Below, in pieces: positions 1,964-2,391 of a stretch of 64,000 bases of DNA; the first letter of the stretch is position 1, and each line of letters begins with the position of its first letter. Position numbers and translations under genes: made by a program. Origin of the DNA: Escherichia phage nataliec. The stretch lies in sequence record MN850611.1; one strand, written 5' to 3'. The notes under the pieces are model-generated. The model ran no database searches. It saw only the letters and a program-made list of their open reading frames with translations, and was not told the DNA's origin.

Positions 1964-2166
1964 ATTTTGAGAGGGCTATTTAGCCCCTCCCTTAAAGAGT
2001 TCTTACGAGTATTCTTTAAAGGAGCAGAAGACCAAATTCAGCAAGTTACTTAAAATTTCAAGCCAATTTAATTTTGAAAAATTTAAAACTTGGTCTGGCT
2101 CAACAAATTTACAGAAGACCGTTTACAGCAAAACTTAAACAATCTATTTCTCGGTAAAGAAAAGGC

Positions 2167-2218
2167 GAAGGTTCGATTCCTTCACTCGGCAGATGTCGAG
2201 TTGGTGTAATGGTAGCAC
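2167..2218 (+). other. tRNA-like fragment: T-arm hairpin plus acceptor-like hairpin plus D-arm-like segment in permuted order (no complete cloverleaf)
   Basis: gaagg-ttcgatt-ccttc (2167-2183) followed by actcggc-agat-gtcgagt hairpin (2184-2201) and tggtgtaatggtagcac (2202-2218). Confidence 0.4.
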
Positions 2219-2243
2219 TTAAGATGATAAACAACGGTCTGGT

Positions 2244-2387
2244 AATTATCTTTGTAGATAAGTTATTAAGCTTACCTGTGAGTATGCGACCACAAAGGGT
2301 GAAAGGGTAAATTCTAGATTTAAACCCAAAAAGGCACATCGCTACAGACCTTAAGCAAGTCTGGGTAGCTTATCTACAAAGATAATT
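2244..2387 (+). repeat. 19-bp perfect inverted repeat (aattatctttgtagataag / cttatctacaaagataatt) enclosing a 106-nt unit
   Basis: arms at 2244-2262 and 2369-2387 are exact reverse complements. Confidence 0.7.
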
Positions 2388-2391
2388 TAAT

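What the first reader, a model, noticed from the sequence alone, without database searches (positions are those of the whole stretch)
2108..2390. Permuted tRNA-like fragment embedded in a repeat unit, followed by a 19-bp perfect inverted repeat enclosing 106 nt
At 2167-2218 a canonical T-arm (gaagg-TTCGATT-ccttc) is followed directly by a 7-bp hairpin whose two strands look like the 3' and 5' acceptor strands (actcggc-agat-gtcgagt), and then by a D-arm-like segment (tggtgtaatggtagcac). No anticodon arm or complete cloverleaf can be assembled, so this is a tRNA top-half in permuted order. Immediately downstream, 2244-2262 and 2369-2387 are exact reverse complements flanking a 106-nt AT-rich unit. 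This could be a degenerate or permuted tRNA, a tRNA-derived small RNA, or a miniature inverted-repeat insertion.
Basis: seen in the sequence. Interest (0 to 1): 0.55.

Follow-up and report, generated by a model that had tools for sequence, protein, structure and literature searches.

The report
Phage Y-like RNA mimicking tRNA
The "scrambled tRNA" is most likely the tRNA-mimicking part of a small non-coding RNA that partners with a phage protein shaped like the human Ro60 autoantigen; the same RNA–protein gene pair recurs, unannotated in the records examined, in many unrelated phages.

Summary
The interpretation (degenerate or permuted tRNA, or MITE) is only partly right. The window is a Felix O1-like phage tRNA cluster. 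Positions 2112-2243 form a conserved structured RNA: an 8-bp closing helix, the motif ACAGCAA, a small hairpin, then T-arm, a 7-bp acceptor-like hairpin and D-arm. This is the layout of YrlA, the bacterial Y RNA with a tRNA-like domain. The gene ending at 703 on the same strand (Pfam DUF2828+DUF7788) has a confident predicted structure whose 12 best PDB matches are all Ro60. Helix+ACAGCAA elements, often in arrays and sometimes carrying the tRNA-like module, sit beside homologues of this gene in 14 of 15 curated loci (a sub-threshold one in KVP40). In 75 uncultivated viral contigs the count is 38 on the gene strand against 2 opposite. Both alignments show about 96-98% pairing and compensatory changes in 20-21 of 23 pairs. 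My model also finds the published YrlA of mycobacteriophage ET08. Rfam's YrlA model and the GNCGAA Ro-binding motif do not match here. The inverted repeat 2244-2387 is the stem of a second conserved structured RNA, not a mobile element. Expression and protein binding are untested. Verdict: new variant of a known kind.

The parts
2..703 (+). 3' part (233 codons) of the Ro60-like protein gene (471 aa in full; Pfam DUF2828 + DUF7788; PHROG 850 'RNA-binding protein')
   Evidence: Pfam DUF7788, E 1e-43. The full-length Felix O1 homologue has DUF2828+DUF7788. The AF2 model of P0115 has pLDDT 90, and its 12 best PDB matches are all Ro60, E 1.5e-8 to 4e-7.
722..842 (+). Two sigma70-like promoter matches (722-750, 813-842) upstream of the tRNA / Y-like RNA cluster. 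A third at 2641-2669 starts the next block.
   Evidence: Consensus scan, 10-11 of 12 positions. These are consensus matches only.
1403..1476 (+). Short Y-like element 1: helix AGACCAA (1407-1413) / TTGGTCT (1467-1473), motif ACAGCAA
   Evidence: R1 gives 26.3 bits. Conserved in the relatives.
1570..1634 (+). Short Y-like element 2: helix AGACCGT (1574-1580) / ACGGTCT (1625-1631), motif ACAGCAA
   Evidence: R1 gives 31.7 bits.
2025..2098 (+). Short Y-like element 3: helix AGACCAA (2029-2035) / TTGGTCT (2090-2096), motif variant TTCAGCAA
   Evidence: (D9) and direct reading. The same element carries ACAGCAA in Felix O1, BPSELC-1 and Sf13.
2112..2243 (+). Y-like element 4, which carries the tRNA-like module: closing helix 2116-2123 / 2233-2240, ACAGCAA 2125-2131, V hairpin 2143-2165
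   Evidence: MFE fold. R1 gives 120.5 bits as a seed sequence. Covariation.
2167..2183 (+). T-arm mimic (G53-C61 pair; T-loop TTCGATT)
   Evidence: 4 of its 5 pairs covary across phages.
2184..2201 (+). Acceptor-stem mimic: 7-bp hairpin with loop AGAT and no encoded CCA
   Evidence: All 7 pairs show changes on both sides.
2202..2218 (+). Positions 8-9 (TG) and the D-arm mimic (A14, G18 G19, A21 present)
2244..2387 (+). Second structured RNA: a stem of about 22-24 bp (2244-2265 / 2366-2387) closing a branched interior. It ends 4 nt before tRNA-Lys.
   Evidence: Fold z = -5.3. RNAalifold on 6 sequences gives 40 pairs, 15 of them with a compensatory change.
2345..2363 (+). Inner hairpin CAGAC-CUUAAGCAA-GUCUG with a conserved (Y)UUAGCAA-type loop
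   Evidence: The stem covaries: CAGAC/GTCTG, CAGTC/GACTG, CAAACC/GGTTTG, AAAGTC/GACTTT.

Best explanation
Positions 2112-2243 encode a roughly 130-nt non-coding RNA of the Y-RNA type. The 5' and 3' ends pair into a 7-8 bp helix, followed on the 5' side by single-stranded (U)ACAGCAA. The interior folds into a small variable hairpin, a T-arm, a closed acceptor-like hairpin and a D-arm. Together these would form the tRNA 'elbow' without an anticodon arm. It is one of four tandem helix+ACAGCAA RNAs (1403, 1570, 2025, 2112) that lie among the tRNA genes downstream of a phage gene for a Ro60-fold ring protein (DUF2828/DUF7788).

Shown here: the structure is conserved by covariation, the protein has the Ro60 fold, and the RNA and protein genes are linked on the same strand across very distant phages.

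Inferred: (1) the RNAs are transcribed with the tRNA operon from the promoter-like sites at 722 and 813 and cut out by the tRNA-processing nucleases; (2) the Ro60-like ring binds the helix/ACAGCAA module, as Ro60 binds the conserved helix of Y RNAs; (3) the tRNA-like module recruits or distracts tRNA-recognising factors (RNase P, modification enzymes, CCA-adding enzyme, or an exonuclease such as PNPase). On this reading the particle works in RNA surveillance, repair or decay during infection. In some lineages the acceptor-like loop encodes NCCA, which suggests cleavage into a two-piece mimic with a free CCA end. The window's copy has a closed AGAT loop.

The adjacent 2244-2387 hairpin RNA is a second conserved structured RNA of the same spacer. 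Its 3' end would be set by RNase P cutting at tRNA-Lys. Its role is unknown, and it may be another ligand of the same protein.
For: Structure. The MFE fold gives the closing helix, V, T, AS and D arms. Ounavirinae relatives keep the arms through compensatory changes: ACTCGGC/GTCGAGT, ACACGTT/GGCGTGT, ACCCTTC/GAAGGGT.

Covariation, seed set. A covariance-model alignment of 12 elements from 5 phage groups (4 of them from Ounavirinae) has 97.8% of cells paired against 66.6% in shuffles and 37-48% in slid controls. 20 of 23 pairs change on both sides.

Covariation, independent set. In 75 IMG/VR loci there are 21 model hits, all on the gene strand. None of the full-length hits overlaps an ARAGORN tRNA; only the truncated last hit, L059:1-89, does. 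Pairing is 96.2% against 58.6%, and 21 of 23 pairs covary.

Protein. The AF2 model has pLDDT 90.2 and pTM 0.89. The top 12 Foldseek PDB hits are all Ro60 (Xenopus, human, Deinococcus Rsr, Thermus phage phiLo), aligned over roughly the full length with TM 0.49-0.65; the next hits are bare vWA domains at E > 3e-3. hhalign against the canonical TROVE Ro of phage ET08 gives 85% probability, E 6e-6.

Linkage. Strict helix+ACAGCAA elements within 2 kb of the gene on its strand number 29, against 0.87 expected, in 15 curated loci; 14 of the 15 have at least one. The loci cover Enterobacteria, Klebsiella, Cronobacter, Yersinia, Aeromonas, Campylobacter, Listeria, Staphylococcus, Enterococcus, Bacillus, Fusobacterium and Mycobacterium phages. 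In the independent loci the count is 38 on the gene strand against 2 on the opposite strand.

Link to YrlA. The YrlA layout (Ro-binding stem, V, T, AS, D) is published (PMC4201824). My model finds the YrlA site 190 nt upstream of the TROVE Ro gene of ET08, as the only hit with E below 0.1 in 50 kb (36 bits). Rfam YrlA hits the same site.

CCA. NCCA directly follows the acceptor-like 3' strand in 7 of 23 modules (8 of 24 gives P about 2e-9).
Against: There are no expression, end-mapping or binding data. Protein-RNA contact is inferred from gene linkage and analogy.

Rfam's YrlA model does not hit the window element even at E <= 10 on 306 nt.

The YrlA Ro-binding motif GNCGAAN0-1G is absent from the closing-helix region. 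Its one occurrence, at 2164, is the T-stem.

The protein hits no TROVE or vWA_Ro60 Pfam model.

The tRNA-like element is missing in one 62%-identity relative (L017) and reduced to a T-arm in Yersinia phage P778, so it is dispensable in some phages.

Only 32 of the 75 independent loci pass the strict ACAGCAA criterion.

The element criteria were set after seeing the first loci, and the covariation alignments are fitted to the model.
Confidence: 0.78

Rival explanations
1. Neutral debris: the 3' end of one decayed tRNA gene abutting the 5' end of the next (a tRNA-dimer junction), or a tandem-duplicated tRNA that lost its outer halves. No function of its own.
For: It lies in a dense tRNA cluster with 1-8 nt spacers. 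tRNA-dimer junctions do score weakly with my model, for example window 3540-3659 at 32 bits. Chen et al. warn of this artefact.
Against: The two acceptor-like strands pair with each other in every lineage despite complete sequence turnover. The module is always enclosed by a helix+ACAGCAA frame and lies next to the Ro60-like gene in unrelated phages that have no tRNA at that spot, for example BigCheese, Krypton555, L095 and L065.
Confidence: 0.04
2. A genuine permuted or split tRNA: the transcript is cut in the acceptor loop (and perhaps ligated elsewhere) to give an aminoacylatable tRNA-like molecule that takes part in translation or in tagging.
For: The stem is 7 bp, as in M. smegmatis YrlA, which RNase P cleaves and which receives CCA. 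NCCA is encoded right after the 3' strand in about 30% of modules: Mijalis GCCA, S13 ACCA, and L095, L059, L065 and L101.
Against: No anticodon stem-loop can be built. The closing helix is separated from the D and T arms by loops of 13-19 nt that contain ACAGCAA. The window copy has a 4-nt AGAT loop and no CCA. No bulge-helix-bulge motif is visible by eye in the sequence, and (from my own knowledge) no splicing endonuclease is known in these hosts.
Confidence: 0.07
3. A cis-acting processing or stability element of the tRNA operon, such as an RNase P/RNase E entry site or a spacer insulator. It would act without the Ro-like protein and would not accumulate as an RNA.
For: The elements sit between tRNAs in Ounavirinae, FBKp34, FADO and P778. 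From my own knowledge, tRNA-like structures are classic RNase P substrates.
Against: In mycobacteriophages, Staphylococcus SEP9, Fusobacterium Fnu1, Aeromonas LAh_6 and several IMG/VR contigs, the elements flank the Ro-like gene with no tRNA immediately beside them. What is conserved is linkage to the protein gene, not linkage to tRNAs.
Confidence: 0.09
4. For 2244-2387 only: a miniature inverted-repeat transposable element or other insertion.
For: A perfect 19-bp terminal inverted repeat. The middle 80 nt or so differs between Felix O1-type and BPSELC-1-type phages.
Against: It is single-copy in the window. It is present at the orthologous site, just 5' of tRNA-Lys, in four genera and in a 62%-identity relative. 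The stem is kept by compensatory changes (UA<->CG, CG<->UA, CG<->GC), and so is the inner hairpin.
Confidence: 0.02

Closest known systems
YrlA, the bacterial / mycobacteriophage Y RNA with a tRNA-like domain (Chen et al. 2014, PMC4201824; Rfam RF02553)
   Same: The order of arms is the same: stem formed by the two ends, V, T, AS (closed acceptor-like hairpin), D. The T-loop, D-loop and position-8 nucleotides are retained. It is encoded on the same strand near a Ro60-fold protein gene. There are several Y-like RNAs per locus, as with YrlA and YrlB. The AS stem is 7 bp, as in M. smegmatis YrlA. My model, built only from DUF2828-linked elements, finds ET08 YrlA at 36 bits.
   Different: The conserved motif beside the closing helix is (U/A)ACAGCAA, not GNCGAAN0-1G. 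Rfam RF02553 does not score it. The partner protein belongs to DUF2828/DUF7788, not TROVE/vWA_Ro60. There are arrays of up to four elements interleaved with tRNA genes. Some lineages encode NCCA in the AS loop.
Ro60 / Rsr (TROVE + vWA ring protein) and the phage phiLo Ro60-Yrl1/Yrl2 particle (PMC12135203)
   Same: The predicted fold matches Ro60 over roughly the full length. A complete MIDAS motif (D279, S281, S283, T349, D381) is invariant in the family. It is a phage-encoded protein with adjacent small structured RNAs.
   Different: There is no significant sequence match to any PDB Ro60, and the profile match is only E 0.19. The protein is 471 aa against 500-540. The phiLo Yrls were picked by a CGAA motif and have no reported tRNA-like domain.
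Permuted tRNA genes of Cyanidioschyzon merolae and other algae (from my own knowledge)
   Same: The 3' half (T-arm + 3' acceptor strand) precedes the 5' half (5' acceptor strand + D-arm), and the two are joined by a short linker.
   Different: Those genes encode a full cloverleaf, including the anticodon arm, and mature through a circular intermediate made by the splicing endonuclease. Here there is no anticodon arm, and a bulge-helix-bulge motif was not looked for formally (none seen by eye).
Stable small RNAs inside phage tRNA operons, such as T4 species 1 and 2 / rnaC, rnaD (from my own knowledge)
   Same: Small structured RNAs of unknown function, co-located with and probably co-processed with phage tRNAs.
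   Different: No sequence or structural relation was tested or shown. T4 has no DUF2828 gene that I know of.

Membership tests
YrlA-type Y RNA (Chen 2014; Rfam RF02553) | Encoded close to, and on the same strand as, a Ro60 orthologue | tested here: met
   The Ro60-fold gene ends at 703, same strand, 1.4 kb upstream. The linkage is reproduced in 14 of 15 curated loci (a sub-threshold element in KVP40) and in IMG/VR loci. Caveat: the protein has the Ro60 fold but is not a Pfam TROVE member.
YrlA-type Y RNA (Chen 2014; Rfam RF02553) | Stem formed by the 5' and 3' ends, enclosing V, T, AS and D stem-loops in that order | tested here: met
   MFE fold, pattern scan, covariation of all four modelled helices.
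YrlA-type Y RNA (Chen 2014; Rfam RF02553) | tRNA-invariant nucleotides for the D-loop/T-loop elbow (U8, A14, G18 G19, A21, G53-C61, T54 T55 C56 R57 A58) | tested here: met
   Read directly from 2167-2218: T-GTGT-AATGGTA-GCAC and GAAGG-TTCGATT-CCTTC. These columns are invariant in A5. The Levitt pair 15-48 was not resolved.
YrlA-type Y RNA (Chen 2014; Rfam RF02553) | GNCGAAN0-1G motif in the 5' strand of the Ro-binding module | tested here: not met
   A regular-expression search finds it only at 2164, inside the T-stem. It is absent from the closing-helix regions of 8 other phages. ET08 has GCCGAG/GCCGAAG in that place. Here ACAGCAA takes that place.
YrlA-type Y RNA (Chen 2014; Rfam RF02553) | Scores with the curated covariance model RF02553 | tested here: not met
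   No YrlA hit at E <= 10 on window 2095-2400 or 1300-3200. The positive control ET08 scores 37.4 bits, E 1e-6, itself below the gathering score of 69.
YrlA-type Y RNA (Chen 2014; Rfam RF02553) | Bound by Ro60 in vivo; carries pseudouridine/dihydrouridine made by TruB/DusA | not testable with these tools
   Needs immunoprecipitation and modification mapping.
Ro60 / TROVE protein family (for the gene at 2-703) | Ring of HEAT-like repeats plus a C-terminal vWA domain with a MIDAS motif | tested here: met
   AF2 model with pLDDT 90.2. The 12 best PDB matches are all Ro60. The MIDAS residues are invariant.
Ro60 / TROVE protein family (for the gene at 2-703) | Matches Pfam TROVE (PF05731) and vWA_Ro60 (PF25045) | tested here: not met
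   Only DUF2828 and DUF7788 at E <= 1. ET08 gp220 hits both Ro60 models. hhalign between the two families gives 85% probability.
Permuted tRNA gene | All cloverleaf parts are present, so that joining the ends restores an anticodon arm | tested here: not met
   No anticodon stem-loop. The flanks form the closing helix with ACAGCAA instead. ARAGORN and the Rfam tRNA model are negative.
Permuted tRNA gene | 3' half encoded upstream of the 5' half | tested here: met
   The order is T-arm, 3' acceptor strand, 5' acceptor strand, D-arm. NCCA follows the 3' strand in 7 of 23 related modules, but not in the window.
Miniature inverted-repeat transposable element (for 2244-2387) | Multiple dispersed copies, and presence/absence between close relatives | tested here: not met
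   A single copy in 64 kb; only a 17-nt partial match at 2858. Present at the same site in all Ounavirinae-like sequences examined.
Miniature inverted-repeat transposable element (for 2244-2387) | Terminal repeats conserved as sequence rather than as base pairs | tested here: not met
   The arms differ between phages but stay complementary. 15 of the 40 predicted pairs carry a compensatory change.

The most novel reading that the evidence does not exclude
DUF2828/DUF7788 proteins are a large, phage-centred branch of the Ro60 superfamily. Homologues occur in 709 phage records and in more than 2,500 protein clusters. They may come with their own, so far undescribed class of Y RNAs, defined by a terminal helix plus a CMGCAA (mostly ACAGCAA) motif, encoded in arrays and interleaved with phage tRNA genes. 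A subset carries a tRNA-elbow mimic. In about a third of those modules the mimic encodes NCCA and may be cleaved by RNase P into a two-piece, CCA-ended tRNA decoy. The particle would then be a phage tool for tRNA/RNA surveillance or for countering host tRNA-targeting defences.
Probability: 0.35. Interest if true: 0.8.

Novelty: new variant of a known kind. Interest (0 to 1): 0.65.

Why it matters
What the tRNA-like domain of Y RNAs does is still open; the 2014 paper that described it says so. Only a few bacterial and phage systems have been studied.

If this reading holds, classic and genetically tractable phages carry Ro60-like particles with several Y-like RNAs. Examples are Felix O1 and its E. 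coli/Salmonella relatives, Listeria phage LP-124, and Campylobacter and Staphylococcus phages. That would make the question testable by simple phage genetics and pull-downs.

It would also correct annotation. Among the records examined (about 100 matching records listed by the searches), this stretch carries only tRNA or 'hypothetical protein' labels. One such label is an antisense 76-codon ORF that is not conserved.

It would explain part of the unexplained spacer DNA in phage tRNA clusters. It would also add a new RNA motif (helix + ACAGCAA) and a new protein branch (DUF2828/DUF7788) to the Ro60/Y RNA field.

Tried and rejected
1. Standard tRNA. ARAGORN and the Rfam tRNA model find nothing at 2108-2390; only the T-arm scores, at 14.9 bits.
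2. Any Rfam family. At E <= 10 nothing relevant appears. The two short elements give chance-level Dictyostelium class I RNA hits. On 7 other phage loci, gathering-threshold hits are tRNAs only.
3. None: the relatives that carry this element show the same permuted module.
4. Coding explanation. The antisense ORF 2109-2339 (76 aa, annotated in some genomes) is intact only in Felix O1-type phages and is absent from the five divergent relatives examined.
5. Sequence-level link of the protein to Ro60. phmmer against the PDB finds nothing. A 5-sequence profile gives only E 0.19. The structure prediction was needed.
6. The first homologue search, with the 233-aa C-terminal fragment, returned only truncated or short proteins. 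It was repeated with the full-length protein.
7. MAFFT alignments with flanks were out of register at the 3' strand and the AS stem. I re-aligned on exact helix boundaries and then through the covariance model.
8. The AGCAA-loop hairpin as a general second motif. It is found only in Ounavirinae-like phages.
9. Literature. I found no paper that links Felix O1, Felixounavirus or DUF2828 with Y RNAs or Ro60. The 2020 Annual Review on bacterial Ro60 was not available, and the supplementary phage list of Chen 2014 is not held. Prior mention cannot be excluded.
10. KVP40. It has only a minimal, sub-threshold element overlapping the gene start.
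Full report
**What the window is.** It holds 24 ARAGORN tRNAs plus two more that only Rfam calls, all on the + strand between 869 and 6213. The region 1950-2420 is 95-100% identical to about 190 Felix O1-like phages (Felixounavirus, Ounavirinae) and 72-90% identical to Mooglevirus and Suspvirus. The finding lies in the 428-nt spacer between tRNA-Asp (1886-1963) and tRNA-Lys (2392-2467). In the records I inspected this spacer is unannotated or carries 'hypothetical protein' calls.

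**Observation.**
- T-arm at 2167-2183.
- A 7-bp hairpin at 2184-2201 whose strands look like the 3' and 5' acceptor strands.
- D-arm at 2202-2218.
- An exact 19-nt inverted repeat at 2244-2262 / 2369-2387, which extends to 22 nt.
- A repeat unit, CAGAAGACCnnnT(A/T)CAGCAA, at 1403, 1570, 2025 and 2112.

A strict scan for 'T-arm, then hairpin, then D-arm' on both strands of the whole window returns only this site.

**Anatomy.** Each repeat unit is the 5' strand of a helix whose 3' strand (nnnGGTCTGG) lies 50-120 nt downstream. The helix sequence differs between copies but stays complementary: AGACCAA/TTGGTCT against AGACCGTT/AACGGTCT. In the fourth copy the interior folds, by energy minimisation alone, into a small hairpin (V), the T-arm, the acceptor-like hairpin (AS) and the D-arm. 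The nucleotides that build the tRNA elbow are all present: U8, A14, G18 G19, A21, G53-C61 and the T-loop TTCGA.

**Conservation.** In Sf13, SUSP2 and Mijalis the AS hairpin has a different sequence but remains paired. In Mijalis the loop reads GCCA-AACA, which is a discriminator base plus CCA directly after the 3' acceptor-like strand.

**The neighbouring protein.**
- The window starts inside a gene that ends at 703 on the same strand. In full it is 471 aa, with Pfam DUF2828 + DUF7788 and PHROG 850 'RNA-binding protein'.
- It has no significant sequence match in the PDB. A small profile gives only marginal Ro60 hits at the MIDAS motif.
- An AlphaFold2 model built from a 57-sequence alignment is confident (pLDDT 90.2, pTM 0.89).
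- Its 12 best Foldseek matches in the PDB are all Ro60 proteins: Xenopus, human, Deinococcus Rsr and Thermus phage phiLo. They align over roughly the full length, E 1.5e-8 to 4e-7. After them come only isolated vWA domains.
- The canonical TROVE Ro of mycobacteriophage ET08 aligns to the family profile with 85% probability.

The gene therefore encodes a divergent Ro60-fold protein. Ro60 proteins are known to bind Y RNAs. The bacterial and mycobacteriophage Y RNA YrlA has the layout 'Ro-binding stem, V, T, AS, D' (PMC4201824).

**Is the RNA-protein gene linkage general?** tblastn finds the protein in 709 phage records from very different groups. I fetched 14 further loci. Helix+ACAGCAA elements, usually 1-4 in tandem, lie beside the gene on its strand in these phages:
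- Klebsiella FBKp34
- Mycobacterium BigCheese and Krypton555
- Campylobacter PC14
- Listeria LP-124
- Staphylococcus SEP9
- Cronobacter S13
- Bacillus FADO
- Aeromonas LAh_6
- Enterococcus VRE9_2
- Fusobacterium Fnu1
- Yersinia P778
- a 62%-identity metagenomic relative

KVP40 has only a minimal candidate. With a strict definition, 29 elements lie within 2 kb of the gene on its strand where 0.87 are expected from the rest of the sequence. In FBKp34, BigCheese, Krypton555, S13 and FADO, one element of the array encloses a T-AS-D module.

**Covariation and an independent test.**
- I built a covariance model from 10 module-bearing elements.
- On the 12 best matches, 97.8% of pair cells are standard pairs. 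Column shuffles give 66.6% and slid partners 37-48%. 20 of 23 pairs change on both sides, including all 7 pairs of the closing helix and all 7 of the AS stem.
- As an unseen test set I fetched 75 IMG/VR loci that encode proteins 38-47% identical to the query.
- In that set, strict elements number 38 on the gene strand and 2 on the other.
- The model gives 21 hits at E <= 0.01, all on the gene strand, many directly abutting the gene.
- None of the full-length hits overlaps a predicted tRNA; only the truncated last hit, L059:1-89, does.
- Pairing in the test set is 96.2% against 58.6%, with 21 of 23 pairs covarying.
- NCCA follows the acceptor-like 3' strand in 7 of 23 modules. Counting one tRNA false positive gives 8 of 24, P about 2e-9.

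Caveats: the alignments are fitted to the model, and the element definition was made after seeing the first loci.

**Relation to bona fide YrlA.**
- ET08 gp220 is a canonical Ro60 (Pfam TROVE + vWA_Ro60).
- In 50 kb of ET08 my model has one hit with E below 0.1. It lies 190 nt upstream of that gene and matches only the V-T-AS-D part of the model (36 bits).
- Rfam's YrlA model (RF02553) hits the same place.
- So the tRNA-like module is shared with YrlA.
- The Ro-binding part is not shared. ET08 has a 10-bp stem with GCCGAG/GCCGAAG. The DUF2828-linked RNAs have a 7-8 bp stem with ACAGCAA and lack GNCGAAN0-1G in that place.
- RF02553 does not score the window element even at E <= 10.

I therefore file it as working like YrlA, but as a distinct variant with a distinct protein partner.

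**The inverted repeat at 2244-2387.**
- It folds into a stem of about 24 bp closing a branched interior (z = -5.3).
- Six Ounavirinae-like sequences, including the 62%-identity relative that lacks the tRNA-like element, keep it at the same site just 5' of tRNA-Lys.
- 15 of the 40 predicted pairs carry a compensatory change.
- An inner hairpin has a stem that covaries and a conserved loop, CUUAAGCAA/CUUUAGCAA.
- It is single-copy in the window.

It is a second conserved structured RNA, not a MITE. Its function is unknown. The AGCAA loop hints at, but does not show, a link to the same protein.

**Context.** Promoter-like sites at 722 and 813 precede the cluster, and another at 2641 follows tRNA-Ile. 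These are consensus matches only. The antisense ORF 2109-2339, annotated in some genomes, is not conserved.

**Mechanism.**
- Shown: a conserved RNA fold, a Ro60-fold neighbour, and conserved same-strand linkage.
- Inferred:
  - co-transcription and co-processing with the tRNAs;
  - binding of the ring protein to the helix/ACAGCAA module;
  - use of the tRNA-elbow mimic to engage tRNA-recognising enzymes or an exonuclease, as proposed for Ro60-Y RNA-PNPase particles (PMC4201824, PMC12135203);
  - in the NCCA-bearing lineages, cleavage of the AS loop to expose a CCA end.

An RtcB-like ligase lies 1.3 kb from the gene in Listeria phage LP-124. That fits an RNA repair or surveillance role but proves nothing.

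**Novelty.** YrlA-type RNAs and phage Ro60 are known; the phages cited are mycobacteriophages, CcrColossus, Bacillus phage G and phiLo. I found no paper that connects Felix O1-like phages or DUF2828 with Y RNAs. Rfam has no model that detects these RNAs. Two relevant sources could not be read. Verdict: a real feature and a new variant of a known kind.

Noticed in passing
window 964-1319 (+): A small HNH endonuclease ORF (Pfam HNH just above its cut-off) sits between tRNA-Pro (869-945) and tRNA-Glu (1321-1392). In Felix O1 these two tRNAs are 8 nt apart, so this looks like a homing-endonuclease insertion into the tRNA cluster.
   Followed up: partly
window 1321-1392, 2874-2952, 3101-3175: Two tRNAs are found by Rfam but missed by ARAGORN. 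By synteny with annotated relatives they are Glu-TTC (55 bits) and Arg-TCT (31.7 bits). A third tRNA-like stretch at 3101-3175 scores only 23 bits, and only with the tRNA-Sec model.
   Followed up: no
L015 (Cronobacter phage S13) 5896-6138: Two over-long annotated 'tRNAs' (121 and 113 nt) lie just after the Ro60-like gene. My model hits 5947-6065 across them, with ACCA following the acceptor-like strand. These may be Y-like or split tRNA-like RNAs rather than ordinary tRNAs.
   Followed up: partly
L013 (Listeria phage LP-124) 6815-8026: An RtcB-like RNA ligase gene lies 1.3 kb downstream of the DUF2828 gene and its three ACAGCAA elements. This echoes the rsr-yrlBA-rtcBA arrangement of Salmonella, as I recall it from my own knowledge.
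   Followed up: no
L017 6135-6421 and L018 (Yersinia phage P778) 6788-6878: The tRNA-like element is absent from a 62%-identity relative, which keeps the short element and the long hairpin. In P778 it is reduced to a T-arm-only version, so the module is gained or lost within the group.
   Followed up: partly
GU169904.1 'Staphylococcus phage SA1' 58605-59075 and 145270-146682: A record named as a Staphylococcus phage carries Felix O1-like DNA and the Ro60-like gene at about 98% identity. It is probably a chimeric or contaminated assembly.
   Followed up: no
L100 3231-3307 and L101 4374-4450 (IMG/VR contigs): A suppressor-type tRNA (anticodon TTA, which reads UAA) is encoded near the Ro60-like gene and its Y-like RNAs.
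   Followed up: no
window 24686-24731, 26347-26458, 43924-44051 (+): Three further helix+ACAGCAA matches lie far from the gene. They set the background rate and are probably chance matches, but I did not inspect them.
   Followed up: no
window 714-745 and 793-842: A duplicated promoter-like block (TTTTAAAAAnnnnnTTGACAA) lies just after the Ro60-like gene. The first copy sits inside a 12-bp hairpin (D20, 93).
   Followed up: no
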